Origin: Alphaproteobacteria bacterium
GTDB taxonomy: Bacteria; Pseudomonadota; Alphaproteobacteria; UBA6615
Assembly (NCBI GenBank): GCA_021774575.1
Contig: JAJFIX010000023.1
Coordinates: forward strand, 4,166-68,165
Reading direction: 5' to 3'
DNA length: 64,000 bases
The translations under genes and the position numbers were made by a program. The stretch's first letter is position 1; every line of letters starts with the position of its first letter. Of this stretch, positions 5,190 through 23,500 are shown one piece after another. Below the pieces are notes generated by a model. That model saw only the letters and a list, made by a program, of their open reading frames with translations, searched no databases and had not been told where the DNA came from.

Positions 5190-5207
5190 GCTTTTTTAAA
5201 TGCTTCA

Positions 5208-5239
5208 CGCCCTCCGCGCCTTTATCGGTGCGGGGGGCG
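5208..5239 (+). terminator. possible imperfect GC-rich hairpin after the M24 gene
   Basis: CGCCCTCCGCGC ... GTGCGGGGGGCG forms an imperfect inverted repeat, followed by the T-containing tract cttcatttcgtctt. Weak call. Confidence 0.3.
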
Positions 5240-5272
5240 CTTCATTTCGTCTTGAGATAGGAATATCGAAAC

Positions 5273-7760: not shown

Positions 7761-7891
7761 TTTCCCTGGGCTCGACTGCATCTTCATGTTTTGCCTTCGT
7801 AAGGCTCTTGGCGTATAAAATTTCACCATGTTCTGCAAACGATTGCACGAACATTCGTTCATGAGAGTTTTAAGCATTGAAGGGTGATCTA

Positions 7892-9544: not shown

Positions 9545-9778
9545 TTCGAATTTGTTATTATCACTGAGGTGACGAACTGATATTGGGTATCTGAAATAAC
9601 AGAATACCCAGCAAGGGCTGATCGATGGCAGCCAGCGAGAGCCGCCTCGGCACCAGGGGACATTACCCCATAATTTAGTTGCTGAGAAAGCGCAAATTAG
9701 GGAAAATCGTTGCTATTAGGTCACAAATGGACCTGAAGTGCTGTGGATAGATGTGCTCTGGTTTTCGGGAGGCGGCGG

Positions 9779-10576
9779 TTATCCTGCGATTTCATCGATT
9801 AAGGCCGGGATTGATCCTCCCACTTGCCGTAAGATTTCGGCAAATTCCGCGCGTTGGGTCAGCAGGAAACTGCGCCCAGCAAAGGTTGCATCAAGTATGC
9901 GCAATTTGCCGTCGGTGGTAACCACGGACCACAAGACCTCGCCCTGGACGTCTGCGGATGAAAACAAGGACCTTACTTCAATGAGCGTGTCGGTCCGCTC
10001 CACCGCATCGACCTGACGTGCCGAAACAACCTCGATTCGGCCGTTCGGCGGAAATCCCTCAATGAGTTGCTTGGCCAGAAAACCGCCCAGGATTGCTCTA
10101 AATTGATCGCGTTCTCCCTCGTCGGCCTTGTTCCAGGCGCGGCCGAGGACGATCCGACTAATTTCCTGGGTAGCGAACTTTTGGTCGAAGAGATCACTGA
10201 AAAATTGACGCAATAGAGCCGGGCTGTTGGTTTGGTCGTTAAGCGCCGTAATGCTCGTCTGGGCGAGGTCGTTGATAAATTCTGGGGCTAGAGCAATAGA
10301 ATCCTGGCCATTCTGCGCCAATTGCAAAGGGGTGGCGGAGTTGATGGATCGCATATGTTCGGGCGACGATGGTGGGCCGGCCGCTAAGGGGGGCGTTACC
10401 AATGCTGCAGTTATTGCGATTAAAATACCTGCTCCGGCCGCAGTCCTCACAGAACTTGCGAGCAGGGATACGAAATATTTAGCCAACAGATTATTAGGAT
10501 ATTTCACTGAGCACCTATTCGTTAATGTTTTCGATTTTGCCGAAACGGCGAAAATTTGGAATTTAAAAATATTCAT
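9779..10576 (-). CDS. MlaC/Ttg2D-family periplasmic lipid-binding protein, paralog 2
   Basis: Contains LGRAWNKADEGERDQFRAILGGFLAKQL and ILDATFAGRSFLLTQRAEFAEILRQVGGSIPALIDEI, with a hydrophobic N-terminal signal/anchor. Confidence 0.75.
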   Translation of the reverse strand: MNIFKFQIFAVSAKSKTLTNRCSVKYPNNLLAKYFVSLLASSVRTAAGAGILIAITAALVTPPLAAGPPSSPEHMRSINSATPLQLAQNGQDSIALAPEFINDLAQTSITALNDQTNSPALLRQFFSDLFDQKFATQEISRIVLGRAWNKADEGERDQFRAILGGFLAKQLIEGFPPNGRIEVVSARQVDAVERTDTLIEVRSLFSSADVQGEVLWSVVTTDGKLRILDATFAGRSFLLTQRAEFAEILRQVGGSIPALIDEIAG

Positions 10577-10606
10577 GCTGGCGCGAATGGCGCAGCTGTT
10601 TTGCGG

Positions 10607-11341
10607 CTAACGCCCCAATGTTTCAATGAGTCCATCCAAAGATCCTCCATTGCGTTGGAGAATGCGGTCAAAATCTCCCTTTTGCCCGAGAAGAAAGCTC
10701 GTCCGGGCAAAGGTAATATCAAGTATTTTCATTTCACCATCGACCGTTGCCACGATCCATGGAACTCTGGCGGAAAAATTTTGGCCGACAAAAACGGTCA
10801 CTACTTCGGTCTGCGGTAAGCCGAGCTCCGATTGTCCGGCCAGGGAGGCGCCGCGTACCTGAAAGCGACCATCGGGCACCCGGTCAATGATGACGTCGGC
10901 CAAGTGGATCGCCAGCACATCAAGAAAGGCGTCGCGCTGCTCTATCGATGCCGTTGACCAGATGCGACCGAGGACCGCCTGGCCGATTTGCTCCGACGCA
11001 AAAGCCGAGGAAAAAATTTGGCGAAATATCTCATGGGCCAATTGCCGACTTGTCTGGGCTTGGGTCAACGCGGCAAGACCCGCATCGATCACGGTGTCGA
11101 CGAAAATTGACGCGACATTGGTCGGGTCATCTGGCGCCTGAAAAATCCAGCGCGGCCCAATCGGTGTCGCGTTTTGGTTCGCAATTGGGCGAGCGGTCTC
11201 GGCAAAGCCAATGCTTGAAGTGAAAATTGCCACAGCTAGGCAAAATGCCAAACTCGCACCCGCTGTCGCAACAGGGCCGAAGGACACGAGAATTGCCGCG
11301 CCTGCGCGCCTAATTGAGTTATGTATAAATACTGTATTCAC
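10607..11341 (-). CDS. MlaC/Ttg2D-family periplasmic lipid-binding protein, paralog 3
   Basis: Contains LGRIWSTASIEQRDAFLDVLAIHLADVI and ILDITFARTSFLLGQKGDFDRILQRNGGSLDGLIETL, with an N-terminal signal/anchor. Confidence 0.75.
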   Translation of the reverse strand: MNTVFIHNSIRRAGAAILVSFGPVATAGASLAFCLAVAIFTSSIGFAETARPIANQNATPIGPRWIFQAPDDPTNVASIFVDTVIDAGLAALTQAQTSRQLAHEIFRQIFSSAFASEQIGQAVLGRIWSTASIEQRDAFLDVLAIHLADVIIDRVPDGRFQVRGASLAGQSELGLPQTEVVTVFVGQNFSARVPWIVATVDGEMKILDITFARTSFLLGQKGDFDRILQRNGGSLDGLIETLGR

Positions 11342-11671
11342 TGTTCTTTACGTGGCCAGGATATGAATTTTACTAACACTGTCGTGCCGGTTACTCGCTC
11401 ATAGTATCCGTATGGGCATAGTATAGTGTTATATATGTCTTTGTCGCGAAAATTTTTATAAGTTGAGTGAAAGATATATTAAATTGATATTCCGGAAAAA
11501 CACAGAATATGCCCACTTATCGGCCGCCCGCACATGACCCGCACATAAATTGACCAGATCAACCTGCACAATCGCGCAACCGCGTGGTCAGGTGCCAATC
11601 GCTAAGTTACGGCATCATTTGTGTGCGATATCTGGAATGCTGTTCAGAGACCGAGAGCTGTGCACTCAAAA

Positions 11672-11685
11672 TTGACCTGGATCAA
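11672..11685. promoter_or_regulatory. candidate FNR/CRP-family binding site TTGACCTGGATCAA
   Basis: TTGA-N6-TCAA palindrome matching 9 of 10 specified positions of TTGAT-N4-ATCAA. It lies in the AT-rich 500-bp divergent intergenic region, about 160 bp upstream of the ATG at 11843. An Fnr-type regulator with the ETVSR recognition motif is encoded in the downstream operon. Confidence 0.45.
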
Positions 11686-11842
11686 GTTTTTCTTCCAAAA
11701 TTCCAATAAAGACCATGATTAGGCGGAATAAACGGTAAAATGTTGATGCATGTCAATGTTCCACCCGTATTCGGTCACTACTTTTCAATTATCAATATTG
11801 CCATTGTTCTCTGTTCGAGAGCGCTCCAAAAAGGAGATCCCA

Positions 11843-13240
11843 ATGACCCCTAAACTATCAAAACTTTTTCGACTCGTTATTGCCCCGGCGGCTCTGTCTG
11901 TTGCGCTCATGGTTCAGCCGGTGGCCGGATCGTTTGCGCAATCCGACGGCCCCGGCGATGGTTGGACAACGCCGCTTGCCGAGCAACTCGGTGTTCGATT
12001 GGTCCAACGGTTCGATTCCTCGGGTGAAGATGCCTGGGATCCGCTAGCCCATCCCAACGTCTTTATTACAACCGAGGGGCCCGGATATGGCGGCCTGTTA
12101 AGTGGTGTCACCCAGCCGGGTATCGCTATTATTGACTCCGATACCCGTGAAGTTGTGGCTCATCAGAGCTATGACGTTCTCGCCCTTGGCTGGGAAAATG
12201 TGTTCGAACCCCACGGGCTCGGCGTTTCTCCTGACGGGCAATGGATTTATCTGCCAAGTGGCGAGGGATCCTTTTCCTCGGTCGGCAAAGGTCGGTTGCT
12301 GGTCATTAACGCGCGCACACTGAAACTGGACAAAATTTTAGGACTGCGCGGTCAACCCCATCACGCCAAATCCTTCACGATGCCGGACGGAACGGGCCTT
12401 GCCTATGTTTATGGCTGGGGCCAACCGATGTTTGCGATGGACCCCAGTGATGATAATCGCGTTGTCGGGGGATTGGATTTCAATGCAATGGGTATCGAGG
12501 GATATCTATATTTTGCCTCCCCCGAGGGCGACGAGATCATTGCCAGTGGGCGTTTTCGACGCGGTGTAGCGAGAAATGAGTTACATGGCAATGTGATGGT
12601 TCGCATCGATACGTCTGACTGGAGCTTGATTGACTATGTTCCAGTTGCTGACAGCACCCCTGTCTGGGTCTCTTTTAGCGCAGACGGCGAGAATGCGTAT
12701 TTCAGCGGTGGTCACTCTAGCCTCGTATTCAAATACGACCGGATCGGGGACGAGGTGACGTCGCACGCACGCGCTGGCGTTGAAGGTCCGTACGGTGTGC
12801 ATTTAGGTTGGGATGACACCTTCCTTTATGCGGTTGGCAAGGGCGAAGGATCCCACAATCGCGGTAAAGTATTGGGGCTTATCAATACCGATCTGATGGA
12901 TAGGTCAACCCGGCCAATGGATCAGTTTACGACAAACTGCTTGCGTGGCGATCACGGCACGCTTCATCCTGATCCGGATGCGAATGAGTTGTGGATTACC
13001 TGCAATTCGAGCTTTGAAATTGTGGTTTTTGACCTCGACCGTAACGAAGTCTCAGCCAGAATTCCGATGCCGAACGGTGGTAGCACTCACTCCGGCTCTT
13101 TCCTTCAATATGCAGGCTGGAATGGCGAAGTCGTCGCCGACCAGAACGGGCTTCAAGGCAGCGCACTTACCCTGAAGCGCCAACTGCTCGGGTTGGAGGG
13201 TGCCGAAACGGTGCCCGCCGATGAGCTAGTGGGCGACTAA
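11843..13240 (+). CDS. secreted beta-propeller protein with recurrent blade histidines; function unknown, possible metallo(copper)-oxidoreductase
   Basis: The ATG at 11843 is preceded by AAGGAG. Sec signal MTPKLSKLFRLVIAPAALSVALMVQPVAGSFA. Repeated propeller-like segments carry His (EPHGLGVSPDGQWIY, QPHHAKSF, GGHSSLVF, YGVHLGWDD, GDHGTLHPDPDANELW, GGSTHSGSF). The coding call is solid and the functional call is speculative. Confidence 0.7.
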   Translation: MTPKLSKLFRLVIAPAALSVALMVQPVAGSFAQSDGPGDGWTTPLAEQLGVRLVQRFDSSGEDAWDPLAHPNVFITTEGPGYGGLLSGVTQPGIAIIDSDTREVVAHQSYDVLALGWENVFEPHGLGVSPDGQWIYLPSGEGSFSSVGKGRLLVINARTLKLDKILGLRGQPHHAKSFTMPDGTGLAYVYGWGQPMFAMDPSDDNRVVGGLDFNAMGIEGYLYFASPEGDEIIASGRFRRGVARNELHGNVMVRIDTSDWSLIDYVPVADSTPVWVSFSADGENAYFSGGHSSLVFKYDRIGDEVTSHARAGVEGPYGVHLGWDDTFLYAVGKGEGSHNRGKVLGLINTDLMDRSTRPMDQFTTNCLRGDHGTLHPDPDANELWITCNSSFEIVVFDLDRNEVSARIPMPNGGSTHSGSFLQYAGWNGEVVADQNGLQGSALTLKRQLLGLEGAETVPADELVGD

Positions 13241-13283
13241 CGGATCGGCGACGGTAGGAGATACCGTCACCAACACGTCAGAA

Positions 13284-13306
13284 GGGGGATAGCCCCGCTA
13301 TCCCCC
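13284..13306 (+). terminator. strong stem-loop (attenuator or partial terminator) after the first operon gene
   Basis: GGGGGATAGC-CCC-GCTATCCCCC forms a 10-bp perfect stem 44 nt after the stop at 13240. There is no clear U-tract (gcctcttc). Confidence 0.4.
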
Positions 13307-13344
13307 GCCTCTTCAAACCACTGCCCAATTCAGAATTTAGCAAA

Positions 13345-14616
13345 ATGTTTGCGCGACGAATGACCAAGGAGATGGCTGTGCTGAACAAACTGAAATCGAA
13401 TGCCGGATTAGGTGTCATTGCCGGAGCGGCCATTTGCACCACTGCAATTTTCCTTGTTGTTTCAAGCAGCGCCCAATCCCAAGCGCCTGCGATCAGCGAC
13501 GCGTCGCCGCAAGTTGAAAACGGCCGGGACATATTTATGACAGCGGGGGGCGTTGGTTGTGCAGCCTGTCACGGAATTTTTGGTGAAGGCGATGTCGGCA
13601 TCGGCCCTTATGCGCGCGGTGTGAATAGGGCGTCGATCGACGCGGCGCTAGAATCCATTGCCGAAATGTCCTTCCTTCGAAGTTCGGTACGCGGCCAATC
13701 CATCGACGATATTGCTGCCTATACGGAGTGGCTCGGCAATCATCAACTGGTAAAGACCCTCGCCAAGCGCGGCCGTTTTATTCCCGACAGCGTATCCGTC
13801 CGTCCAAACACATTGATCCAGCTGGTTATATCTAATGCCAGCCGGTTTCCCCGCACCTTTGCCAGTGACGATATGGGTATCGGTGAGATTTCCGTGGATG
13901 GACGTGAGGTCGCAGAAATTATCTGGACGTCGCCTAGTGAGGAGGGAACTTTCACCCTACGTTGCTTGGATTGCCGGATTACCGATCAGCAACTTTCTAT
14001 CCAAATTTCGAATGACGCTGCGCCCTTCACCCCCGTTTCTGGGCCACCGGTTGAGGTGGCGAATACGCCTGCACCAGCCGTTCAGACAGCGGCGGATTTG
14101 GACTTGATCGACCGCGGTCGAGATATTTTTCTCAATGCCGGTGAGGTGGGGTGCACGGCCTGTCATGGCTCTTACGCCGAAGGCGATGTTGGAATTGGTC
14201 CTTATAATAGAGGCCTCGATGAAGACGATATTCGTCTGGCGTTGGCTAATGTCGATGCGATGCGTTTCCTGCAGCAACAACTAGACGATGAACAAATTCA
14301 TCAAGTCGCTGCCTATTACGGATGGCTGGGTGATCACCAGCTTTTCAAAACGCGCATGATCCGTGGGCAATTCTTTCCGAATAGAATTCGGGTGGCGCCG
14401 GGGGCGGCTATTCAGTTGGCGATTACCAATCGCGCTCGTTCCCCTGGTGCATTTTTTAGCGCCGACATGGGGATTGAACCCTTCGTTGTCCAAGGTTTGG
14501 AGACGGTCGATTTTTTCTGGACCGCGCCAAGGGTTGAAGCCGAATTCACCCTGCGCTGCGCCGATTGCGCGACATCAGATTGGCTGACCATCGAGACGAC
14601 GCAGGCTGCACGATAG
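13345..14616 (+). CDS. periplasmic di-haem protein: internal duplication of [class-I cytochrome c + cupredoxin-like beta-sandwich]
   Basis: Two CxxCH motifs (CAACH at 13558-13572, CTACH at 14152-14166) lie exactly 594 nt (198 aa) apart. Each is followed by FxPxxxxVxPxxxIQLxIxN ... FTLRCxDC. N-terminal signal/anchor present. Start is uncertain between 13345 and 13378. Confidence 0.8.
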   Translation: MFARRMTKEMAVLNKLKSNAGLGVIAGAAICTTAIFLVVSSSAQSQAPAISDASPQVENGRDIFMTAGGVGCAACHGIFGEGDVGIGPYARGVNRASIDAALESIAEMSFLRSSVRGQSIDDIAAYTEWLGNHQLVKTLAKRGRFIPDSVSVRPNTLIQLVISNASRFPRTFASDDMGIGEISVDGREVAEIIWTSPSEEGTFTLRCLDCRITDQQLSIQISNDAAPFTPVSGPPVEVANTPAPAVQTAADLDLIDRGRDIFLNAGEVGCTACHGSYAEGDVGIGPYNRGLDEDDIRLALANVDAMRFLQQQLDDEQIHQVAAYYGWLGDHQLFKTRMIRGQFFPNRIRVAPGAAIQLAITNRARSPGAFFSADMGIEPFVVQGLETVDFFWTAPRVEAEFTLRCADCATSDWLTIETTQAAR

Positions 14617-14635
14617 GGCAGGAAAGGGAAAAGCT

Positions 14636-16063
14636 ATGACAAATTTGAATGTCGCCAACCGCCCGTCCTTCAAGCCCGTCCGAAGAACTTGGGCCGCTGT
14701 GGGCCGATCCTGGGGAGGGTCGCATCCCCGGCTGGTCGCAATTTTTTCCTTACTTGCCGCTCTCGTCGTCTCGTCTGCTTGGCTAGCATTTCCCTATATT
14801 CTTGAAGGCCGTGGGCTCATTGCCGATGTCGGCGACACGGTGCAGACCGAGCGCCGCGACCGCGCGACTACGGTCGGGCAGCTGCTCACCCGTTATGCCG
14901 ATGGGCTGGGCGGGGCGGAAATCGACATGCTCTACGCGACACCGCGTTTTTTCGAAATCGCGGGGCAAGCCTCAAGCTATGATCAATACCGGCCCGATCA
15001 ATACATTGTGTTTATGATTAATGAGACGACCCATATCGAGGACCTGCCGCAACAGTTGCCCGAGGCGACCTTGATCGTCGATGGAAAGACGTATCAACCG
15101 GTCGATATTGAAGGGCCCATTGATGTCGTTCACCATCGATCCTCAACGGTTCGTTTTGCCGCGATTGACGCCAATGGCCAGCCGATTATTCCTGCCGATA
15201 CAAGCGAAATTGAACTCAGCCTTGTCGGCGATTGGGGCGACGCCGGGATGCCACGTACCGCATCATGGGATTTGCCGATCGATTATGCCGAGACCTATGA
15301 CGCAGGAATTTGGACACCTGTGATGGTTTTTGCCCTTGCGGCGGGCTTGTTGTCGGCAGTTTTGACCCCGTGTTTGCTGCAATTGCTGGCGGTTTATTTT
15401 GTCACCCTTGTTGGAGTTTCGGCTGAGAGTGGTGGTGGTAGTGGCAGTGCTTCTGCCTCCGGCCCTGGGGGCCGAAAAATGTTATATGCAGCGCTGGCGT
15501 TTGTGGCCGGTTTTACAGTTCTCTACACGGTTGCGGGTGCCGCGATCGGCTATGCCGGCAAGGAAATGCAGATATTGTCTGCCGAATGGAGCCGTCACGT
15601 TGGCATTGCGTCGGGACTTTTGATCATTGCAATGGCAATTTGGTTCGGTATCAGGTCGCGGGCACCGATGGTCTGTAAAATCCCGTTGCCCGGCGCGGTT
15701 GCTCGGTTTGACAAACGCGGCGTCATCGGCTCGGCGCTCGTCGCCGCCGGTTTTTCGCTGGGCTGCATGACATGCTTTAGCGGTGCGATTGTCGCGACCC
15801 TCCTCGTCTATGTCGGTGCGTTGGGGAGTGCCTCAATCGGAGCACTGGTTCTCTTCCTGTTCTCGATCGGTGTTGGAATTCCGTTCTTGGCCGGAGCGCT
15901 GTTCCTGTCCCGAGCCACTCGGGCAATGGCATGGGTGTCGAAATTTTCGCCCCAGATCGGTTTCGTTTCGATGGTGCTGATGGCTGGGTTCGGCGTGCTC
16001 CTGATTACCGATAATTTTCACGAAGTGAGCAATCTCATTTACCCATGGCTCGGTTTGGGGTGA
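14636..16063 (+). CDS. membrane protein: N-terminal anchor + ~190-aa periplasmic domain + CcdA/DsbD-like (cytochrome c biogenesis transmembrane region) domain
   Basis: The C-terminal half is polytopic with membrane-embedded Cys (AVLTPCLLQLL and SLGCMTCFSG), as in thiol-disulfide or metal transporters of the CcdA/DsbD family. RBS GGAAAGGGAAAAG. Confidence 0.7.
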   Translation: MTNLNVANRPSFKPVRRTWAAVGRSWGGSHPRLVAIFSLLAALVVSSAWLAFPYILEGRGLIADVGDTVQTERRDRATTVGQLLTRYADGLGGAEIDMLYATPRFFEIAGQASSYDQYRPDQYIVFMINETTHIEDLPQQLPEATLIVDGKTYQPVDIEGPIDVVHHRSSTVRFAAIDANGQPIIPADTSEIELSLVGDWGDAGMPRTASWDLPIDYAETYDAGIWTPVMVFALAAGLLSAVLTPCLLQLLAVYFVTLVGVSAESGGGSGSASASGPGGRKMLYAALAFVAGFTVLYTVAGAAIGYAGKEMQILSAEWSRHVGIASGLLIIAMAIWFGIRSRAPMVCKIPLPGAVARFDKRGVIGSALVAAGFSLGCMTCFSGAIVATLLVYVGALGSASIGALVLFLFSIGVGIPFLAGALFLSRATRAMAWVSKFSPQIGFVSMVLMAGFGVLLITDNFHEVSNLIYPWLGLG

Positions 16064-16105
16064 ACCGGAATGCTGGTTGATTGGTTCCAATTTGGAGGTA
16101 GGAAA

Positions 16106-16447
16106 ATGAAAAAACTTTTGATCCATGCGGCTTTGGCATTCTTTGTCCTGACGCCGGTTGTCCTGGCGTCAGGGGCAGCAAATGCGGCCGAGCGCGATAT
16201 CACGTTGACTGTTCTCATGACTTGCCCGACGTCCGAACCACCGTTGGTCCGAAAAACGCTGCTTGACGTCAATGGCGTGAGCGAGGTCGCGGTATCCTAT
16301 TCAGACAAAAATGCATATGTGATTTTCGATGATGCGGTGACGAATGAAATGGAACTGATTGCCGCGATTAATGAGATTGGGCTGCGGACGTCACGTGATG
16401 AGGATGGGGGGGATATGGAAGCCATGGATGATATGAGCGAAATGTAA
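16106..16447 (+). CDS. secreted HMA-like (heavy-metal-associated fold) protein with degenerate metal motif and Asp/Met-rich tail
   Basis: GGAGG RBS. Signal MKKLLIHAALAFFVLTPVVLASGAANA. MTCPTS replaces the canonical MTCxxC, followed by VNGVSEVAVSYSDKNAYVIFDD (HMA beta-alpha-beta-beta pattern). C-terminus is DEDGGDMEAMDDMSEM. Confidence 0.55.
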   Translation: MKKLLIHAALAFFVLTPVVLASGAANAAERDITLTVLMTCPTSEPPLVRKTLLDVNGVSEVAVSYSDKNAYVIFDDAVTNEMELIAAINEIGLRTSRDEDGGDMEAMDDMSEM

Positions 16448-16490
16448 AAATTGATCGCTCGGGCTTGAGCAAGAGACACGAGGGCAGAAA

Positions 16491-17660
16491 ATGACAAGTT
16501 TCAAATCAATGATGGTCTTAAGCGCCGGATTTCTCCTTTTGGGTACGGCGGTTGCATTCGCTGTGCGAGAACCAAATGTGTCGCTCGCCGTTAGTGATAT
16601 TGAAAAATATGTGTTCGTTCCCAGTTTGGGGTCGGCCGACATTACGGTGATTGACAGTCGGAATAATTCTGTTGTCGGGACGATTGATCTTGACGAAATC
16701 CCGGACCGGTTGGTCGTGTCTTCCGCCGTCGGCCAGCTTATTGTCAGCAATCTAGAAAGTCGCACCGTTACATTGATCGATATAGAGACCGGCGATGAGA
16801 CTGCCGAGATCGCCCTAGATATAACGCCGCAATCCCTGGTCATGAGCCCCGAGGGGTATCTGGTCGCTGTGAGCGATGTTGATGCCGGCGTCGTCGCCGT
16901 GATTTCGTTGCACCGTGGCGTTGAAGTTTCGAGGATAGACAATCTTTCGGCGCCCTCTGGGTTAACTTTCAGCGATGATGGGTCGTTACTTTATGTTCCA
17001 GATGGTGCGTCAAATTCGATCAAACTTATCGATATCGTCCAAGGTAGGGCGTTTGGGGAGTTACCACTATCTGCTGGCAACCCTGATGGAGTAGGCGACC
17101 CGGAAATGCTCAGCGCCGTCACCAGAAGTGCCAATGGTCGCTTTGGCTTTTGCGCCATCGGTCATGCCGAGGAGCTTGCCATATTTGATTTTGGAACCGA
17201 GCAACGGGTCAAGACGCTCAAATTGGGTAACCAGCCTTCGCGGCCTTTCGGCACCGCGGATGGGCGATATATTATGGTGGCAAACAACGGTGATCGCACC
17301 GTGTCGATTATTGATACGCAGACCTTTGATATTGCCGCAACGCTGCCCGGGGCCGCCGATGTTACAGCAATTAACACCGGTTGGTTTGAGACCGTGGCCT
17401 TCGTCATCAGCGAAAGTGAGGACAAAGCGATCATCCTCGACCTCATGGATTTACGTAAATCTGGTGAGATTGAATTACCGAGTTCTCCCGGTCCAGGTGT
17501 CGTGACTCCCGACGCAGCGACACTTTATGTTGCGCTTAGCGATACCGATAGCGTCGCGGTGATCGATACACGGTCACGCCGGGTGACGGCAATTATCGAT
17601 AATGTAGGAACCCAGCCGCGAGGCGCGACAATGGCGCGAACGAATAATTATTGCCATTAG
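16491..17660 (+). CDS. secreted YVTN-family beta-propeller repeat protein
   Basis: Signal peptide. Repeated motifs of the type LYVPDGASNSIKLIDI, IMVANNGDRTVSIIDTQT and LYVALSDTDSVAVIDTRS. Confidence 0.8.
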   Translation: MTSFKSMMVLSAGFLLLGTAVAFAVREPNVSLAVSDIEKYVFVPSLGSADITVIDSRNNSVVGTIDLDEIPDRLVVSSAVGQLIVSNLESRTVTLIDIETGDETAEIALDITPQSLVMSPEGYLVAVSDVDAGVVAVISLHRGVEVSRIDNLSAPSGLTFSDDGSLLYVPDGASNSIKLIDIVQGRAFGELPLSAGNPDGVGDPEMLSAVTRSANGRFGFCAIGHAEELAIFDFGTEQRVKTLKLGNQPSRPFGTADGRYIMVANNGDRTVSIIDTQTFDIAATLPGAADVTAINTGWFETVAFVISESEDKAIILDLMDLRKSGEIELPSSPGPGVVTPDAATLYVALSDTDSVAVIDTRSRRVTAIIDNVGTQPRGATMARTNNYCH

Positions 17661-17704
17661 GCCCGACACCCTAGGTCAGCAACAAACTCGGGAGGTTGTG
17701 CAAA

Positions 17705-18361
17705 ATGAAAGAAAATTTTCGCCTTGGAATATATGGCAGCCTGGGACTGCTGCTTTGCGCCGCTACCGTAGCCGCCCTGTTGCTGATTAATAATCGCTTG
17801 GCGCCTGAAATCTCGGATCCGCCGCTTGAAATTGATGCGGCAATTATCGACCCAGGGGGACCATTTGCACTGGTCGATCATCAAGGAAAATCGGTAACCG
17901 ACCGTGATTTTCTCGGTCGATATCTACTGGTTAATTTTGGTTATACATTCTGTCCCGACATTTGCCCCACGACGCTCGGCCAAATTACCGTCGCGATGGA
18001 CCTGCTCGGTGAGAATGCGAACAAGGTTCAACCCGTGTTTATCACCGTCGATCCGGAGCGGGACTCAATTGAAGTTTTGGCCCGCTATATGAATTTTTTT
18101 CACCCTCAATTGATCGGCTTGACCGGCTCATCCGACCAGATCGCCAATGTCGCCCGGGTCTATATGGTTCACTACGCCCAGGCCGAGAGGGTCGAAGAGG
18201 CAAGCTATTATTCGGTCGATCACAGTAGCTTCATATACCTCATGGGGCCGGAAGGAGAATTTAGGGACGTCATTGCTTATGGAACTCTACCGCAGGAAAT
18301 GGCGTCGCTCATTGAGCGCCATATTTCAAACGATAGCTCGGCGTCCGGGGACGGCCAGTAA
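17705..18361 (+). CDS. SCO1/SenC family copper chaperone / thiol-disulfide oxidoreductase
   Basis: N-terminal TM anchor, CPDICP motif (FGYTFCPDICPTT), and a conserved downstream His (VDHSSFIYLMGPEG). GGGAGG RBS lies before the ATG at 17705. Confidence 0.9.
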   Translation: MKENFRLGIYGSLGLLLCAATVAALLLINNRLAPEISDPPLEIDAAIIDPGGPFALVDHQGKSVTDRDFLGRYLLVNFGYTFCPDICPTTLGQITVAMDLLGENANKVQPVFITVDPERDSIEVLARYMNFFHPQLIGLTGSSDQIANVARVYMVHYAQAERVEEASYYSVDHSSFIYLMGPEGEFRDVIAYGTLPQEMASLIERHISNDSSASGDGQ

Positions 18362-18414
18362 GGGGAAAGCCAGATAGCCGGATAACCGGGGTAACGAAGA
18401 TTGGAGGTAAATCC

Positions 18415-19194
18415 ATGCCAATGAAAAAGCAAAAAGATCCACTTTGCGGCATGATACTTCATGCAGAGCGTGGCAAATGCGCTTCCTGCGAAGTTCGGGC
18501 ACTCTCAATCTGCGCGCCTCTGGATCGGTCCGCTCTGGAAGTGCTGGCTGACTTGTCGGAGGTGGTAAATTTTAGGAAGGGTGACAGTATCTGCGCCGAA
18601 GGCGATCCGGTGGATTATTTTTTTACCGTGCAGTCCGGGGCACTGAAGACGTGTCGGTTACAGTCGGGGCGCCGTGACCTTGTGACCGGCTTTTTGTTTG
18701 GCGGAGATTTCCTCGGCCTGGCATTCTTTGCCGGGCAAATTGAGGCGGATACTCATTACCCATATGCCGTCAGGGCCTTAAGCAAGGGCCGCCTGTGTCG
18801 GCTGCCAAGACAGGCATTTTCCAAATTCATTGCCGATTATCCGCTTATTGAGAAACAAATTTTGGCAAAAATTTCGTTGAAACTGGAGCAGGCGGAAAAT
18901 CATATCCTGTTGCTTGGCAGAAAGAATGCGCGAGAAAAAATCTCTTCTTTCATTTTGCAACTTGATGACGCGCAGAGATTTGCTCGTCAAAATCTGGAGA
19001 GTGATTTTCAAGGTGTCGATACCGTTGATTTTCCTTTGGCGCGCCATGATATTGCCGATTACCTGGGAATGACTCCCGAAACAGTCAGCCGTGCCTTAAC
19101 TCAGCTGAAGGAAGACGGCTTGATCCGGCAACTCAGCTCACGCTGTGTTGCGCTCGTCCAGCGACAAATGTTGGAAGAGATAGCCGCAGGGTAG
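18415..19194 (+). CDS. Crp/Fnr-family transcriptional regulator, FnrN/FnrL-type with N-terminal Cys cluster
   Basis: N-terminal C11, C22-x2-C25-x7-C33 plus central Cys residues. Contains a cNMP-binding-like beta-roll. C-terminal HTH HDIADYLGMTPETVSRALTQLKEDG carries the E--SR motif used by FNR to read TTGAT half-sites. Confidence 0.9.
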   Translation: MPMKKQKDPLCGMILHAERGKCASCEVRALSICAPLDRSALEVLADLSEVVNFRKGDSICAEGDPVDYFFTVQSGALKTCRLQSGRRDLVTGFLFGGDFLGLAFFAGQIEADTHYPYAVRALSKGRLCRLPRQAFSKFIADYPLIEKQILAKISLKLEQAENHILLLGRKNAREKISSFILQLDDAQRFARQNLESDFQGVDTVDFPLARHDIADYLGMTPETVSRALTQLKEDGLIRQLSSRCVALVQRQMLEEIAAG

Positions 19195-19220
19195 ACGGGG
19201 GGTTAGGTGTTCAAAAAGAA

Positions 19221-19260
19221 GCCCCGCCAGCTGGATGAAGCTGACGGGGCCTGTATTTTT
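19221..19260. terminator. bidirectional rho-independent terminator between convergent genes
   Basis: GCCCCGCCAGC-tggatgaa-GCTGACGGGGC hairpin, flanked by caaaaagaa on the left and ctgtattttt on the right. It sits between the fnr-type gene (+) and the cytochrome c gene (-). Confidence 0.6.
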
Positions 19261-19275
19261 GTGATCGATACGGGT

Positions 19276-19641
19276 TTATTGAGTGGCTAGAAATTCAACA
19301 ATGTCGGCGGCGTCTTGGGCATCTCCGACGCCGGGAAAGGCCATGCTGGTGTCGGGTACGAGTACTTGAGCCTCGGCAATGTACAGCAATAGCGTCTCTT
19401 CATCCCAGGTGAGACCAGATCCTTTCATCGCGTCGGAATATTCGAAATCGGCGAGGTCGGCCGCGGGTCGTCCGATAACACCGGCCAGGCTCGGCCCGAT
19501 GATATTTTCGCCAGCCGTCAAAGAATGGCACGCAGCGCAGACCTGAAACAGGTCTTCACCCCGCGCGGCGTCTTGGGCCAGTATAGGCGTTCCGCTCGCC
19601 AGCACTATTGCGGTCGCCATTATTGATATTGTTGCTTTCAT
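19276..19641 (-). CDS. class I c-type cytochrome (c2/c550-like), secreted
   Basis: Signal MKATISIMATAIVLASGTPILA, haem motif CAACHSL, and a distal Met region (DTSMAFPGV). RBS GGAAGGAA. Confidence 0.9.
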   Translation of the reverse strand: MKATISIMATAIVLASGTPILAQDAARGEDLFQVCAACHSLTAGENIIGPSLAGVIGRPAADLADFEYSDAMKGSGLTWDEETLLLYIAEAQVLVPDTSMAFPGVGDAQDAADIVEFLATQ

Positions 19642-19760
19642 AGCCGATTCCTTCCGTCATTCAGTCATTCAGTTGAGTAAGAACGAATAATCGGCATAAA
19701 AGCCGCCGACTTGGCATGCGACCGATTGTATGCAAGGTAGCTAATTGGTGCTGATTTTCC

Positions 19761-19774
19761 ATGATCTATGTCAG
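19761..19774. promoter_or_regulatory. weak FNR-like half-conserved site ATGATCTATGTCAG
   Basis: Matches 7 of 10 positions of TTGAT-N4-ATCAA, about 120 bp upstream of the cytochrome c start. Low confidence. Confidence 0.25.
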
Positions 19775-19902
19775 CATTCCAGTTGATTAGGAAGCTAAGG
19801 CAGCTCCTTTAGTGGCCGTCTCGATGGATCTATCGCGGGAAAACGATGGTCCGAATCGACTAGATGGCGTGGTTTTGGAAAAACGACTCTAACCGCCCCT
19901 CC

Positions 19903-20329
19903 CTATCCACAGATTTAGGGGCTCGATAAGTAAATTATCCATAGGGACGGTGACCCGGTATTTGGATCGTATCTATTTTTACGTACCGCGTGGAGATGCC
20001 GCTGTTCAAATTCGGGAAATTGCCCCTGTGGACAAATACGAATTTGTGTACAGGTTTTGGTAGTCATGTCGGGTTATCCACAGAGGTGGCGCCTATTTGC
20101 AACACCCAAATGAACTATTCCATATAATTCGGTCGAGCTATAGATTTGTTGGGCCCGTGAGTTGGTGCAACTACAAGACCGACTGAACTGTCCTAAGACC
20201 GTTGTGCAGTCTGAACTTTATGAAGGTTTTTCAATTCAATTTACGTCGCTGGAACGGCTCAAAAGTGGCCCAATTTGGGGGTCGGTTATCGAGCCGATTG
20301 CCTGTGGAAAAAACATGGTTTCATCCACA
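19903..20329. promoter_or_regulatory. cluster of six DnaA-box-like 9-mers (one perfect TTATCCACA)
   Basis: Sites: CTATCCACA 19903-19911 (+); TTATCCATA 19935-19943 (+); TGTGGACAA 20027-20035 (-, TTGTCCACA); TTATCCACA 20074-20082 (+, perfect); TGTGGAAAA 20303-20311 (-, TTTTCCACA); TCATCCACA 20321-20329 (+). All fall in an approximately 0.8-kb non-coding stretch. Confidence 0.5.
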
Positions 20330-20531
20330 GGGCTGTGTACTGTTCTGAGTTGTGGCGAGACCGTGGCTTGGACATCGGGGGAATCAATGAATATCGAAAC
20401 ACTGCCTTCAGCGGCAGTGTGCTGCTCTTGGCAAGGTATAACCTGTCGGGGTTGCGCAAATGTGGGGGCGTGCTTTGGACGATAACCGTTTTCGATCGCG
20501 GTTATTTGGCCGGCCGTTTTCTTGCCGATTA

Positions 20532-23500
20532 ATGCAATACAGAAATGACGGGCCTTCGAGGTCATTTCTGCATTTGGCTGCAGTCGCGCTCTTTTCTGCG
20601 TCACTTTTGGGCTTTGGCGGAGATGCTGTTGCGCAGAGCGTGGATTGGGTGCTCAACCTCAACGACACCGGCTCCGATCCGACCGCCGCCGGTGGAACCA
20701 TCACCTACAATATCAACGTTTCCAATAACGGGGCCGACCCAGCACCAGTGACGACGATCGATCTCGACGTGCCCGCAGGGACAACGCTCGCGGCGACGAG
20801 CGGGACGATCACCGGGTGCGCACCGGTCCCGACTGCCGGGCCTGCCACCGTTACCTGTACGATTCCGGCATTGGCGGCGGGGGGGGCTGTCGATCTGTCA
20901 GCCGATGTCGTTCCGGTCGCTTCGGGAACTGTGACCATCGGCGCGCACGTGCCGACCACCGTGGGCGCAGTAACCGATTTCGATACGGCTAACAACGATC
21001 AAACTGAAAACACGACGATTACCGCAGGGGCGGATGTCGAATTGCTGATTTCCGGGCCAGCCACAGCGGCTTCGGGCAGCCAGATTAGTTACAGCTTTGA
21101 TGCAACCAATAACGGCCCCGATCCGGCGTCAAACCTGACCCTGAGTTTTCCTATACCGACGGGGGTTTCCAACATCACCGAACCGCCGGGCTGTTCCCTG
21201 TCTGCGAGCACCTATACTTGTGCGGTCTCAGGGCCTCTCGCGCCGGGTGCCAGTGTCTCGCTGGTTTTTGACGTTCAGATTTCCGCTGCCTCCGGGTCGA
21301 CGGTGACGCCGGTCGCAACTATCTCCGTCGGCTCGCCAGTTGATCCGCTGGCCAGCAACAACACCGACAGTCTCGACACAGATATCACAGCGGGAACCGA
21401 TCTTCGTATCACCAAATCGCGGAGCCCATCGGGCACGCTTCTGGTTGGCGATACCGTAACCTTCACCCTTGCTGGAAGCTACACCGGTGACGACCCCAGC
21501 GGGATCACAATAACCGACACCATCCCGGCAATCTACGCCATCCAATCGGTTACGCCGTCTGCCGGTAGCGGGTTTGCCTGCACCGTGACCTTGCAGGATA
21601 TTTCCTGCTTGCGGGCGACAGGTGCTGGTCCGGGGGGCAATGTTTCCTTGGGCTCTATCTCCATTGTGGCAACAGCCATAACGGCAGGATCGGCTGTTAA
21701 TACAGCGACCATCGTCGCGACAGGCCCTGTTGATTCAAACCTCTCAAACAATAGCGACACCGACGGCGGTGCGACAATCCAAGATCCAACTGTCGATCTG
21801 CGGGCGAACAAGTCCGGTCCAAATCCGCCGCTCATTGTTGACGGCAATAGTTATGATTTTTCGATCAGCGCTACCAATATCGGCAATGCAGATTTTTTCG
21901 GTACGATCGTTCTAACCGATAGTCTGCCGGCGGGGTTGACGGCGACCGGATTTGTCTTGAACGGATGGACTTGCGCGCCGGTTCCCGCAGCAGTGTTGCC
22001 CATTGCGGGCCCAGCGGTGATTGAATGCACGCAAATTTTTACCTCCGGAAGTCCACTCGCCTCCGGTGCGACGACTTCGAGTGCCGTTATACAGACGACG
22101 GCCACTGCGTCGGGAACCATCACCAACAGTGTCACGGTCTCTTCCCCCGATGCAAATATTGCAGACAGCAATTCTGGCAATGACGTTGCGACCACGACCG
22201 TTACCGGCAGCACACTCGGCGCCTCGGCCGATATTCTCGTCGAGAAGACGGCTAGCCTTGCCACACTGCCGGCAGGCGATGTGCAGACCTTTACCCTTCG
22301 TGTGGTCAATAACGGTCCCATCGCTTCAGCCAACATTACTCTCACCGACAGTCTGTCCGGATTGATCAACAATTCGGTGGGGCCGACCGGTGCTGGGTTG
22401 ATCAGCGTCGACGACACTTCGTCGGTAGGGTTGGCTACGGGGCTGACATGTTCCACCGCCTCGTCGGGGGGCAGCTCTCGCCTCTTGACCTGTACCATCG
22501 TGAATTTGCCGGTCTGTGTGGGCGCCGACTGCCCGATCATCACTGTGCAAGTTCGCCCCGGCGGCAATGGCGGTTCGCGGACCAACACAGCCGACGCTAT
22601 TTCTTCGGTCACCGTCGATTCCGATCTGACGAATAATTCGGCCAGCGCTACTTTCACAGTAGAGCCCCGCGCCGATATGACCGTGACCAAGGTCTCGTCG
22701 CCGTCTCCGGCTACCGCCGGGCAAGATCTGACCTATGTTCTCACCGCGCGAAATATCAGCAATGGTCTCAGTGCTGCAGCGAGTGTGACGATAACCGATA
22801 CGCTGCCGAACAATGTAACTTTTGTCTCCGCATCGCCCTCGGCTGGGAGCTGCACGACCACGCCGATACTCAATTCGACGACCGGTGCTGGCAACAATAC
22901 GGTGAGCTGTTCTCTTGGCACGATCAATAACGGCGCCCAGCGGACGGTGACGATTGTCACGCGGCCGAACTTCGTGACCCGCGGCACCACTCTTTCCAAC
23001 AATGTGACCGTTGCCACGACGACGATCGAGACCGATGGCACCAACAATTCGGCGATCAATCTGACCCCGGTTGTGGTTCCTGTGCTCGACCTTCTGGTAA
23101 ACAAGACCGATAGCGTCGACCCTGTCGCGGTTGGGGATGACACGGTCTTTTCTATTTCGGTGCAGAATATTGGCCCATCGGCGGCTGAAAACGTCGTTTT
23201 TACCGATGTTATGCCGCCGTCTCGGCTGAGCTTCCAATCTGTCATCGTCTCAGCGGGGGGGAGCTGCCTAACGGTTCCTGCGGTCGACAGCTTCGGGCAA
23301 ACCCTTGAATGCGACTTTCCGCGGCTTCTTGCGGGCACCTCGGAGACAATAACGGTCACCATGCGGGGCACCGAAAAGGGTACAGTATTCAACACAGCCG
23401 ATGTGACGTCCGATGAGGTTGTCGCCGGATTTGATACCAACACCACCAACAATAATGTAATGGAGCAGACGACGGTCCGTTCCAAGGCAGACCCCGAAGT

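What the first reader, a model, noticed from the sequence alone, without database searches (positions are those of the whole stretch)
11672..19641. FNR-linked periplasmic copper/haem redox operon built around an uncharacterised His-rich beta-propeller
Seven tightly packed + strand genes (gaps of 19-104 nt) encode the following:
- a secreted beta-propeller
- a duplicated cytochrome c/cupredoxin-like protein
- a CcdA/DsbD-like membrane protein with an extra periplasmic domain
- a degenerate HMA protein
- a YVTN propeller
- SCO1/SenC
- an FnrN/FnrL-type regulator

A soluble cytochrome c is convergent, and a TTGACCTGGATCAA box lies upstream. The layout of one structural gene, a strong hairpin (13284-13306), and then electron-transfer and metal-delivery accessory genes mirrors periplasmic metalloenzyme operons such as nos or mau. 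I cannot map this gene set to any named pathway. The inference is an oxygen-responsive periplasmic copper-dependent oxidoreductase with its own cytochrome c wire and copper-insertion machinery. The substrate is unknown.
Basis: partly seen in the sequence, partly recalled or inferred. Interest (0 to 1): 0.72.

Follow-up and report, generated by a model that had tools for sequence, protein, structure and literature searches.

The report
Unstudied periplasmic copper-propeller redox operon
This operon encodes a secreted beta-propeller with a set of invariant histidines, its own cytochrome c partner and copper-delivery proteins; it is conserved across many uncultured bacteria but never studied, and is most likely a new family of copper redox enzymes with an unknown substrate.

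Summary
Seven co-directional genes (11843-19194) and a convergent cytochrome c gene are present as described. Two FNR-type boxes lie upstream, not one.

The first gene (P1) has no Pfam family. It has no sequence match to NosZ, the new lactonase-type NosZ, thiocyanate dehydrogenase or SBP56. Its model is a lactonase/YVTN-type propeller (pLDDT 87).

Across 87 homologues from at least eight phyla, six histidines are invariant and two more nearly so. Four of the invariant ones sit at the entry of the innermost strand of their blade or hairpin.

Synteny in 58 informative loci:
- 53 have a c-type cytochrome next to or fused to P1.
- 39 have the DsbD-type membrane protein, which carries a CopC/CrdA-like domain with three invariant His and four invariant Cys.
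- In the proteobacterial clade a YVTN propeller, SCO1 and sometimes PCuAC follow. Chloroflexi have YtkA-like chaperones instead.
- No copper-resistance or nir/nor/nos families ranked among the 25 commonest neighbour families.

Best reading (0.6): a periplasmic, cytochrome c-linked, probably multicopper propeller oxidoreductase with its own maturation set, under FnrL control in this genome. The substrate is unknown. The fnr gene, the convergent cytochrome and the cupredoxin-like domain are lineage-specific, not core.

The parts
11672..11685 (.). FNR/FixK-type box 1, TTGACCTGGATCAA. Its centre lies 164 nt upstream of the P1 ATG.
   Evidence: 3 matches in the window against 0.29 expected. The identical box lies upstream of P1 in the closest relative, L011.
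11743..11756 (.). FNR/FixK-type box 2, TTGATGCATGTCAA. Its centre lies 93 nt upstream of the P1 ATG.
11843..13240 (+). P1: a Sec-secreted lactonase/YVTN-type beta-propeller, 465 aa. H125, H174, H175, H339, H372 and H417 are invariant; H71 and H376 are nearly so. The GKGExSHN motif is invariant. This is the presumed catalytic, metal-binding subunit.
13250..13306 (+). Two stem-loops in the P1-P2 spacer (13250-13268 and 13284-13306), with no T tract. They may be an mRNA stability or attenuation element.
   Evidence: MFE -35.7 kcal/mol, z = -3.56. Sequence. Not listed as a terminator.
13345..14616 (+). P2: two tandem units. Each unit is a monohaem cytochrome c (CxxCH plus Met) followed by a cupredoxin-like domain with an invariant C-x-[DN]-C pair and no conserved His. 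This is the presumed electron-transfer partner of P1.
   Evidence: Pfam. Unit alignment. The unit is fused to the C-terminus of P1 in 640-700-aa homologues.
14636..16063 (+). P3: a membrane protein. Its periplasmic Ig-like domain has invariant E130, H133, H166, H167, R168 and W211. Its DsbD_TM domain has invariant C246, C347, C377 and C380.
16106..16447 (+). P4: a secreted HMA/MerP-like protein with a single Cys (MTCPTS) and a Met/Asp-rich C-terminal tail.
   Evidence: An orthologue is found only in L011.
16491..17660 (+). P5: a secreted YVTN beta-propeller that ends in a conserved NNxCH-COOH motif.
   Evidence: Conservation in 22 sequences. Present in 19 of 28 close-clade loci.
17696..18361 (+). 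P6: membrane-anchored SCO1/SenC, with CxxxC and His motifs.
   Evidence: (169.7 bits), and 18 of 28 close-clade loci.
18415..19194 (+). P7: an FnrL/FnrN-type Crp/FNR regulator. C22-x2-C25-x7-C33 plus a central Cys fit an O2-sensing Fe-S site.
   Evidence: It is not found next to P1 in any other locus.
19219..19252 (.). A 14-bp GC-rich hairpin between the convergent fnr and cytochrome c genes. It has a T tract on the minus strand and so acts as a terminator.
19276..19641 (-). P8: a secreted CycA/c550-like monohaem cytochrome c, convergent with the operon. It is a possible general electron carrier and is not part of the conserved set.
   Evidence: No counterpart in other loci.

Best explanation
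The operon encodes a periplasmic oxidoreductase of an uncharacterised family.

P1 is the catalytic subunit. It is a lactonase/YVTN-type beta-propeller. Its invariant histidines are placed as expected for a polynuclear metal centre at the propeller hub, and that metal is most likely copper. NosZ and thiocyanate dehydrogenase have such centres.

Electrons enter or leave through a dedicated c-type cytochrome, P2. In this clade P2 is joined to a cupredoxin-like domain with a Cys pair.

P1 is exported unfolded by Sec, so the metal must be inserted in the periplasm. The inferred maturation set is:
- P3, which combines a CopC/CrdA-like His3 domain with a Cys-bearing DsbD-type membrane domain, and would handle copper and/or reducing equivalents.
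- SCO1, plus PCuAC or YtkA in other genomes.
- The HMA-like protein P4, with its Met-rich tail.
- The YVTN propeller P5, with its C-terminal Cys-His.

In this genome FnrL switches the operon on at low oxygen through two FNR boxes.

Shown here: gene content, conservation, synteny, folds and motifs. Inferred: metal identity, hub geometry, catalysis, regulation and the roles of P3, P4 and P5. The substrate is unknown. By analogy and by neighbourhood, a small inorganic or organosulfur or nitrogen compound is most likely.
For: P1 family and fold:
- P1 belongs to a large unnamed family. There are 407 hits, and the top 120 are at least 54% identical. There are 84 clusters at 50% identity with E<1e-30.
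- H125, H174, H175, H339, H372 and H417 are invariant. H71 (94%) and H376 (89%) are nearly so. This holds across 87 sequences at 33-100% identity from Proteobacteria, Chloroflexi, Acidobacteria, Gemmatimonadetes, Symbiobacteriaceae, Trueperaceae and Actinobacteria.
- H125, H174/175, H372 and H417 precede the innermost strands that start at 126, 172, 370 and 419. H339 is in a loop between strands 328-333 and 344-349.

Cytochrome partner:
- A c-type cytochrome is adjacent or fused in 53 of 58 informative loci.

Membrane partner:
- P3 is present in 39 of 58 loci. It has three invariant His in its periplasmic domain and four invariant Cys in its membrane domain.
- Its N-domain resembles the copper proteins CrdA, CopC and YcnJ-CopC.

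Copper chaperones:
- SCO1 is in 18 and P5 in 19 of 28 close-clade loci. PCuAC is in 6.
- YtkA-like proteins and TlpA/CcdA-like proteins occur in Chloroflexi loci that lack the cupredoxin domain.
- The roles of Sco, PCuAC, CtaK(YtkA), TlpA and CcdA in copper-site assembly are reviewed in PMC9145763.

Export and regulation:
- The P1 leader has no twin-arginine motif.
- There are two FNR boxes and an FnrL-like gene with a Cx2Cx7C motif. The same box is found in L011.

Neighbourhood:
- Among 150 same-strand neighbours, no copper-resistance or denitrification family ranks in the 25 commonest families.
Against: - No metal content, spectroscopy or activity data exist.
- I could not read the model coordinates, so the clustering of the histidines at the hub is inferred from strand positions, not measured.
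- The cupredoxin-like domain lacks the His and Met ligands of CuA or type-1 sites. It is absent from half of the family.
- P5, SCO1 and PCuAC are confined to the proteobacterial clade. In principle they could serve respiratory oxidases.
- FNR control is not a family trait.
- Several fused P1-cytochrome genes stand alone, without accessory genes nearby (and L019 and L023).
Confidence: 0.6

Rival explanations
1. It is a periplasmic copper-homeostasis system rather than a metabolic enzyme. The propeller would sequester Cu(I) or oxidise it, passing the electron to cytochrome c when O2-dependent CueO cannot work. P3, P4 and SCO1 would act like Scs/Cop proteins.
For: - Almost every accessory protein is a copper- or thiol-handling type.
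- The P3 N-domain is closest to the copper-resistance protein CrdA. It also resembles the ScsB N-domain.
- P4 is MerP/CopZ-like with a Met-rich tail.
- FNR control fits the higher toxicity of Cu(I) under anoxia (established knowledge).
Against: - Among 150 neighbours, no P-type ATPase, multicopper oxidase, Cus or CopCD family ranks in the 25 commonest families, and none appears in the six annotated contexts.
- No copper-responsive regulator was seen next to the operon in the window.
- Conservation is very high (55-80% across classes) and includes invariant K334, E336, S338, N340 and D371 around the histidines. This looks like a catalytic site.
- The P3 N-domain lacks the CxxC motif of ScsB.
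Confidence: 0.14
2. The propeller uses another metal such as Fe, Zn or Mn, or no metal at all. An iron example would be the four-His site of carotenoid-oxygenase propellers. SCO1 and the DsbD-like protein would then act only as thiol-disulfide reductants for the Cys pair in P2 or the C367-C388 pair in P1.
For: - A histidine ring at a propeller hub also binds Fe(II) in carotenoid oxygenases, and Zn in AztD (established knowledge).
- C367 and C388 co-vary in 51 of 87 sequences, which looks like a disulfide.
- The Cys pair in P2 could be a redox disulfide.
- Sco proteins can act as reductants (PMC9145763).
Against: - PCuAC, YtkA-like and HMA-like proteins are copper chaperones, not reductants.
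- Eight conserved His, including an HH pair, is the pattern of the polynuclear copper sites of TcDH and NosZ. The TcDH ligand list is given in PMC6504805.
- The P3 N-domain resembles Cu-binding CopC and CrdA.
Confidence: 0.12
3. It is an assembly module for respiratory haem-copper oxidases or other cuproenzymes. The two propellers would be chaperones, expressed at low O2 together with the cbb3 oxidase.
For: - SCO1, PCuAC and CcdA-like proteins are classical oxidase assembly factors (PMC9145763).
- FnrL regulons include cbb3 biogenesis genes (established knowledge).
Against: - No oxidase genes appear in the window, and no oxidase family ranks in the 25 commonest neighbour families.
- P1 is fused to a cytochrome c in 12 of 58 loci, and some of those genes stand alone. 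That fits a redox enzyme, not a chaperone.
- The P1 + cytochrome + P3 core persists where SCO1 and PCuAC are absent.
Confidence: 0.06
4. It is a very divergent member of an already characterised enzyme: a nitrous-oxide reductase (clade I, II or III) or a thiocyanate dehydrogenase.
For: - The domain inventory of fused forms (propeller + cytochrome c + cupredoxin-like) is the same as that of cytochrome-containing NosZ.
- The pattern of an HH pair plus single His residues recalls the CuZ and TcDH ligand sets.
Against: - No hit of P1 to any NosZ model or to L-NosZ NF052460 at E<=0.1.
- Remote relatives of P1 score 33-69 bits where they match that model, against a cut-off of 700.
- No NosZ or TcDH chain was found by sequence or profile in the PDB at E<=10.
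- The order of the His motifs differs: a single His precedes the HH pair.
- The leader is Sec-type, not Tat-type.
- No nosDFYL or nosR genes appear in the annotated contexts or among the 25 commonest neighbour families.
- The cupredoxin-like domain lacks the CuA ligands.
Confidence: 0.06

Closest known systems
Nitrous-oxide reductase NosZ (clades I and II, including the cytochrome c-bearing cNosZ)
   Same: - It is a periplasmic propeller whose histidines, from the innermost strands, hold a polynuclear copper centre at the hub.
- It is paired with a cupredoxin domain and, in cNosZ, a cytochrome c.
- It has dedicated maturation genes and is expressed at low O2.
   Different: - There is no sequence or profile similarity.
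- The order of the His motifs differs.
- The P2 cupredoxin-like domain has only C-x-[DN]-C, without the His and Met of CuA. It lies after the cytochrome and is missing in half of the family.
- The accessory set is DsbD-like, SCO1, PCuAC and YVTN rather than NosDFYL/R.
Thiocyanate dehydrogenase TcDH (trinuclear copper propeller)
   Same: - It is a propeller with a copper cluster in the central tunnel. The cluster is held by seven His, including an HH pair, plus Lys, Glu and Asp.
- A c-type cytochrome is the redox partner.
- copC and copD flank the gene in Thioalkalivibrio (PMC9456337; PMC6504805).
- P1 likewise has invariant K334, E336 and D371 near its histidines, and P3 has a CopC-like domain.
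   Different: - TcDH is Tat-exported, whereas P1 has a Sec-type leader.
- The accessory genes differ.
Lactonase-type (clade III) NosZ, NCBIfam NF052460
   Same: It is also a recently recognised copper enzyme built on a lactonase/YVTN-type propeller, and it is abundant in uncultured bacteria (PMC13477213 and PMC13502197).
   Different: - P1 gives no hit to NF052460 at E<=0.1.
- P5 and remote P1 relatives reach only 33-69 bits against a cut-off of 700, through generic YVTN repeats.
- L-NosZ is picked up by NosZ HMMs (PMC12569097). P1 is not.
CuA-site assembly pathway (Sco, PCuAC or CtaK/YtkA, TlpA, CcdA)
   Same: SCO1, PCuAC or YtkA-like proteins, a DsbD/CcdA-type membrane protein and TlpA-like thioredoxins accompany the propeller in different lineages (PMC9145763).
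   Different: - The target is not a cytochrome oxidase subunit.
- The DsbD-type protein carries an extra His3 Ig-like domain and an additional invariant CxxC.
CopC-CopD / YcnJ copper importers and ScsB
   Same: The architecture matches P3: a periplasmic Ig-like copper-binding domain fused to a polytopic membrane domain.
   Different: - The membrane domain of P3 is DsbD_TM, not CopD.
- The N-domain has no CxxC, unlike ScsB or DsbD-alpha.

Membership tests
NosZ (clade I/II nitrous-oxide reductase) | Match to NosZ sequence models (TIGR04244, TIGR04246) or to solved NosZ chains | tested here: not met
   [not shown]
NosZ (clade I/II nitrous-oxide reductase) | CuA cupredoxin domain with the H...C-x3-C-x3-H-x2-M ligand set | tested here: not met
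   The P2 cupredoxin-like domain keeps only C-x-[DN]-C and has no conserved His or Met.
NosZ (clade I/II nitrous-oxide reductase) | nosDFYL and nosR/nosB accessory genes in the cluster | tested here: not met
   None appear in the annotated contexts or among the 25 commonest families of 150 same-strand neighbours.
Lactonase-type NosZ (clade III, NF052460) | Score at or above the curated cut-off (700 bits) of the equivalog model | tested here: not met
   P1 gives no hit. P5 scores 43 bits. Nine of ten remote P1 relatives score 33-69 bits and one gives no hit.
Thiocyanate dehydrogenase | Sequence similarity to TcDH (PDB 5F75 and related) with the K103/H135/H136/H206/E288/D314/H381/H437/H482/H528 pattern | tested here: not met
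   No TcDH chain was found at E<=10. P1 has an HH pair and single His residues, but in a different order (ligand list from PMC6504805).
Thiocyanate dehydrogenase | Tat signal peptide | tested here: not met
   The P1 leader MTPKLSKLFRLVIAPAALSVALMVQPVAGSFA has no RR motif. Homologues lack it too.
SBP56 / methanethiol oxidase | Pfam SBP56 domain | tested here: not met
   P1 has no Pfam family at E<=0.1.
YVTN/lactonase-type beta-propeller superfamily (fold level) | Propeller fold similar to the 6-phosphogluconolactonase, YncE and S-layer YVTN domains | tested here: met
   [not shown]
Hub-metal propeller enzymes (functional class) | Conserved metal ligands from several blades converging on the central channel | tested here: inconclusive
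   The invariant His sit at the entry of the innermost strands of blades 2, 3 and 7 and of the C-terminal hairpin.
Hub-metal propeller enzymes (functional class) | Bound copper and catalytic turnover | not testable with these tools
   This needs ICP-MS, EPR and enzyme assays.
DsbD/CcdA family (P3) | DsbD_TM domain above the Pfam cut-off, with conserved membrane Cys residues | tested here: met
   PF02683 scores 43.7 bits against a cut-off of 27.1. PC246 is invariant, as are C347, C377 and C380.
ScsB / DsbD (full-length) | Periplasmic N-terminal domain carrying a redox CxxC | tested here: not met
   The N-domain has no conserved Cys. Instead E130, H133, H166, H167 and R168 are invariant.
SCO1/SenC (P6) | PF02630 domain with CxxxC...H copper ligands | tested here: met
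   169.7 bits. C86, C90 and H176 are conserved in 17 sequences.
FNR (O2-sensing Crp/FNR regulators; P7) | cNMP-binding and Crp HTH domains plus an N-terminal Cys cluster for [4Fe-4S] | tested here: met
   Domains found. C22-x2-C25-x7-C33 and a central Cys are visible in the sequence. FnrL is the best NCBIfam match, but at 138 bits against a cut-off of 300 P7 is not an FnrL equivalog.
HMA copper chaperones (P4) | GMxCxxC metal-binding motif | tested here: not met
   The motif is MTCPTS, with the second Cys replaced. The L011 orthologue has MTCPQS. HMA scores 21.3 bits, below the cut-off of 24.8.

The most novel reading that the evidence does not exclude
P1 would found a third, independently derived lineage of hub-copper beta-propeller oxidoreductases, after NosZ and thiocyanate dehydrogenase. 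It would have a new maturation route: a CopC-like/DsbD-type fusion protein plus a YVTN chaperone with a Cys-His tail.

It would catalyse a cytochrome c-linked reaction not yet assigned to any enzyme in abundant uncultured sediment, groundwater and soil bacteria (Woeseiaceae, Arenicellaceae, SAR202 and other Chloroflexi, Vicinamibacterales).

The neighbouring DddP-like, TauE and sulfonate-type genes in gammaproteobacterial loci and in this window point to a candidate reaction. That is oxidation of sulfite or of a volatile organosulfur product released to the periplasm. Reduction of a nitrogen oxide under low O2 is the alternative.
Probability: 0.35. Interest if true: 0.85.

Novelty: new variant of a known kind. 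Interest (0 to 1): 0.7.

Why it matters
Only a handful of enzymes build a multi-copper catalytic site in the hub of a beta-propeller. Each of them, NosZ and thiocyanate dehydrogenase, turned out to control an environmentally important reaction.

This family is well conserved and spread over at least eight phyla. Almost all of its members come from uncultured organisms that dominate marine sediments, aquifers and soils. It has no Pfam model and no name.

A defined operon with a clear redox partner, a defined set of maturation genes and a likely inducing signal (low O2 through FnrL) makes the family experimentally tractable. The whole cluster can be expressed, the metal measured and substrates screened.

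If the substrate is a nitrogen or sulfur species, element-cycle budgets and gene-based surveys are currently blind to it.

Tried and rejected
- A link to L-NosZ through remote relatives. The 1.84-billion-protein profile search gave only generic YVTN proteins beyond the family, and none approaches the L-NosZ cut-off.
- The Sideroxydans cupredoxin/SCO1/cytochrome cluster (Slit_1812-1818). It consists of multicopper-oxidase-type proteins and is unrelated.
- Literature searches. Seven term combinations found no paper describing this gene set. The He et al. 2025 L-NosZ paper is not held.
- FNR boxes as a family trait. They occur in 4 of 79 loci against about 2.5 expected, so they are not enriched.
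- Plasmid origin. There is no megablast match.
- Organism name. An exact look-up gave no accession or name. The closest genome is an alphaproteobacterial MAG at 74% identity.
- Homologues of a single P2 unit. The word-indexed search returned only 3 hits, which is uninformative.
- Pfam assignment of the P3 N-domain. None was found.
- His-His distances in the model. The coordinates are not exposed by the tools.

Full report
**Observation**

The ORF list shows seven co-directional genes between 11843 and 19194, plus a convergent gene at 19276-19641, exactly as reported. The gaps are 104, 19, 42, 43, 35 and 53 nt.

Pfam and NCBIfam confirm each label.
- P2 has two CxxCH cytochrome c domains, each followed by Cupredoxin_1.
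- P3 has a DsbD_TM domain (43.7 bits) behind about 220 extra residues.
- P4 is a sub-threshold HMA/MerP-like protein whose motif is MTCPTS.
- P5 is a YVTN propeller.
- P6 is SCO1/SenC (169.7 bits).
- P7 is a Crp/FNR protein closest to FnrL (138 bits, below the 300-bit equivalog cut-off), with a Cx2Cx7C motif.
- P8 is CycA/c550-like.

The box TTGACCTGGATCAA lies at 11672-11685. A second box, TTGATGCATGTCAA, lies at 11743-11756. The window holds three matches against 0.29 expected.

The hairpin at 13284-13306 is real and has a companion at 13250-13268. The spacer folds at z = -3.56. There is no T tract, so it is not a classical terminator. A strong hairpin at 19219-19252 separates fnr from the convergent cytochrome gene.

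**The propeller (P1)**

P1 has no Pfam family. In NCBIfam it has only an 18.6-bit, far sub-threshold match to the YVTN-type repeat model TIGR03866.

Sequence and profile searches against all PDB chains find only the YVTN S-layer domain 1l0q. NosZ and thiocyanate dehydrogenase are not found, even at E<=10.

The big protein database holds 407 relatives. The best 120 are 54-80% identical. They are unnamed, or called 'YncE'. Some are 640-700 aa because a cytochrome c/cupredoxin unit is fused to the C-terminus.

An exhaustive profile search finds 84 clusters at 50% identity with E<1e-30. Beyond them it finds only generic YVTN proteins. Where those match the lactonase-type NosZ model they score 33-69 bits, against a cut-off of 700.

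**Conserved residues**

I aligned 87 homologues taken from 80 genome loci at 33-100% identity.
- H125, H174, H175, H339, H372 and H417 are invariant.
- H71 is conserved in 94% and H376 in 89%.
- The GKGExSHN motif is invariant, as are D371, Y318 and W385.
- C367 and C388 co-vary (present in 51 of 87), so they look like a clade-specific disulfide rather than ligands.

H125 (FEPHG), H174/175 (QPHHA), H372 (GDHG) and H417 (STHSG) occupy the same position. Each is the residue that enters an innermost strand; those strands start at 126, 172, 370 and 419. In propellers this position faces the central channel on the top face. That is where the CuZ and TcDH ligands lie (PMC9456337; TcDH ligand list in PMC6504805).

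This geometry is an inference.

**Conserved neighbourhood**

Six annotated contexts and 80 genome loci were compared. Nearly all of the loci come from MAGs:
- Woeseiaceae, Arenicellaceae and Porticoccaceae;
- alpha- and betaproteobacteria;
- Chloroflexi, SAR202 and Limnocylindria;
- Vicinamibacterales, Gemmatimonadetes, Symbiobacteriaceae, Trueperaceae and Acidimicrobiia.

Of 58 loci with at least 3 kb downstream of P1:
- 53 have a c-type cytochrome next to P1 or fused to it;
- 39 have P3;
- 20 have P5;
- 20 have SCO1;
- 6 have PCuAC;
- 10 have a secreted alpha/beta-hydrolase.

P5, SCO1 and PCuAC are essentially confined to the clade that is at least 53% identical to the window protein. In the distant clade the partner is a plain monohaem cytochrome without the cupredoxin-like domain.

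In that distant clade, YtkA-like proteins sit between the cytochrome gene and P3. An extra CcdA-like protein and TlpA/ResA-like thioredoxins can also be present. YtkA is of the CtaK type, the Bacillus counterpart of PCuAC (PMC9145763).

The universal core is therefore propeller + cytochrome c + P3. Lineage-specific copper chaperones are added to it.

The fnr gene and the convergent cytochrome occur only here. FNR boxes upstream of P1 are found in 4 of 79 other loci, against about 2.5 expected. One of those four is the closest relative, L011, which has the identical box.

**The partners**

P2. Each unit has CxxCH with a distal Met, then a cupredoxin-like domain. The only invariant candidate ligands in that domain are C-x-[DN]-C, in the loop where CuA carries its Cys pair. 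No His or Met is conserved.

P3. In 43 sequences the periplasmic domain keeps E130, H133, H166, H167, R168 and W211. The membrane domain keeps PC246, C347 and C377-x2-C380.
- The N-domain model (pLDDT 86) is an Ig-like sandwich.

P5 ends in a conserved NNxCH-COOH motif.

P4 has a single Cys and a Met/Asp-rich tail.

All of this fits periplasmic copper handling. None of it is proof.

**Interpretation**

The best-supported reading is a periplasmic, cytochrome c-linked metalloenzyme. Its propeller carries a polynuclear centre, probably copper, that is assembled after Sec export by a dedicated set of proteins. In this genome it is placed under FnrL control.

Rival readings:
- Copper detoxification. 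This is weakened by the neighbour census: among 150 same-strand neighbours, no ATPase, MCO, Cus or CopCD family ranks in the 25 commonest families. It is also weakened by the enzyme-like conservation of the site.
- Another metal, or thiol chemistry only.
- An oxidase-assembly module. No oxidase genes appear in the window, and natural P1-cytochrome fusions argue against it.
- A very divergent NosZ or TcDH. Every sequence test failed.

**A lead on the substrate**

The gene at 3846-5189 encodes a DddP-like M24 protein. Its best NCBIfam match is DddP at 108 bits against a cut-off of 600. It aligns over its full length to the DddP structures 4S01 and 4B28.

It is 73% identical to a gene beside the P1 cluster in a gammaproteobacterial contig. 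Strong orthologues lie within 9 kb of P1 in ten gammaproteobacterial loci.

Those loci also carry some of the following:
- an SSADH-like aldehyde dehydrogenase;
- a LacI regulator;
- an HIBADH/sulfolactaldehyde-reductase-like dehydrogenase;
- a TRAP transporter;
- GST;
- in three loci, a TauE/SafE exporter.

This suggests a link to osmolyte or organosulfur catabolism, with sulfite or a volatile sulfur compound as possible periplasmic substrates. However, the module is absent from the other lineages. It is only a lead.

**Novelty**

No paper in the held library describes this gene set. The family works like the known hub-copper propellers but fails every membership test for them. I rate it a new variant of a known kind, with a 0.35 chance that it is an independent third lineage with new chemistry.

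Noticed in passing
window 1385-8827; L008 14891-20152; also L006, L019, L030-L032, L034, L039, L040, L042: A second conserved module lies beside the propeller cluster in this alphaproteobacterial window and in ten gammaproteobacterial loci. It holds a DddP-like M24 enzyme (73% identical between the window and L008), an SSADH-like aldehyde dehydrogenase, LacI and an HIBADH/sulfolactaldehyde-reductase-like dehydrogenase (58% identical). It also holds transporters: TRAP in the gammaproteobacteria, a taurine/sulfonate-type ABC permease here. Three loci add TauE/SafE. It may be an osmolyte or organosulfur pathway that feeds the propeller enzyme.
   Followed up: partly
window 16491-17660 (C-terminus at 17646-17657): The YVTN propeller P5 ends in NNYCH-COOH. 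N385, N386, C388 and H389 are each conserved in at least 90% of 22 sequences (the window protein plus 21 orthologues). This looks like a terminal metal-binding tail.
   Followed up: partly
L011, L015, L002, L010 (after SCO1); L050, L062, L063, L065, L066, L082 (between P1 and the cytochrome gene): A secreted alpha/beta-hydrolase with a G-x-S-N-G-G motif (Pfam Esterase) recurs inside the cluster in both Proteobacteria and Chloroflexi. It is missing from this window, where fnr occupies that end of the operon.
   Followed up: partly
L049, L060, L086: Some Chloroflexi and Maritalea loci carry two or three tandem paralogues of the propeller gene.
   Followed up: no
window 8849-11341 (- strand): Three tandem, diverged MlaC-family paralogues with signal peptides sit between the catabolic module and the propeller operon. 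An MlaC gene also lies 4 kb upstream of P1 in L010.
   Followed up: no
window 20460-30791 (+): This is a 3443-aa secreted protein with 9 DUF11 repeats, 4 DUF7507 repeats, and CARDB and SdrD_B domains. Its C-terminal third has no Pfam match. It lies immediately downstream of the operon.
   Followed up: no
window 30992-41704: This region holds a urea ABC transporter (UrtA-type Peripla_BP_5, two permeases, two ATPases) followed by a urease cluster. In that cluster UreE and UreF are encoded by one ORF, 39867-41072, which contains UreE_N, UreE_C and UreF.
   Followed up: no
window 45089-49516: Four genes sit in a row: PepSY_2, DUF2271, a 736-aa PepSY_TM-flavodoxin-NAD_binding_1 fusion, and ApbE. 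This looks like a membrane flavoprotein reductase with its flavin transferase.
   Followed up: no
window 62606-63998 (- strand); box at 63774-63787: Nitrile hydratase beta and alpha subunit genes lie here. This is the family that also contains thiocyanate hydrolase. The window's third perfect TTGAYN4ATCAA match lies inside the alpha-subunit gene.
   Followed up: no
window 10000-20000: G+C content is 0.51-0.56 across the operon, against 0.56-0.61 in much of the flanking sequence. Together with the cross-class similarity of the neighbouring module, this may indicate horizontal acquisition.
   Followed up: no
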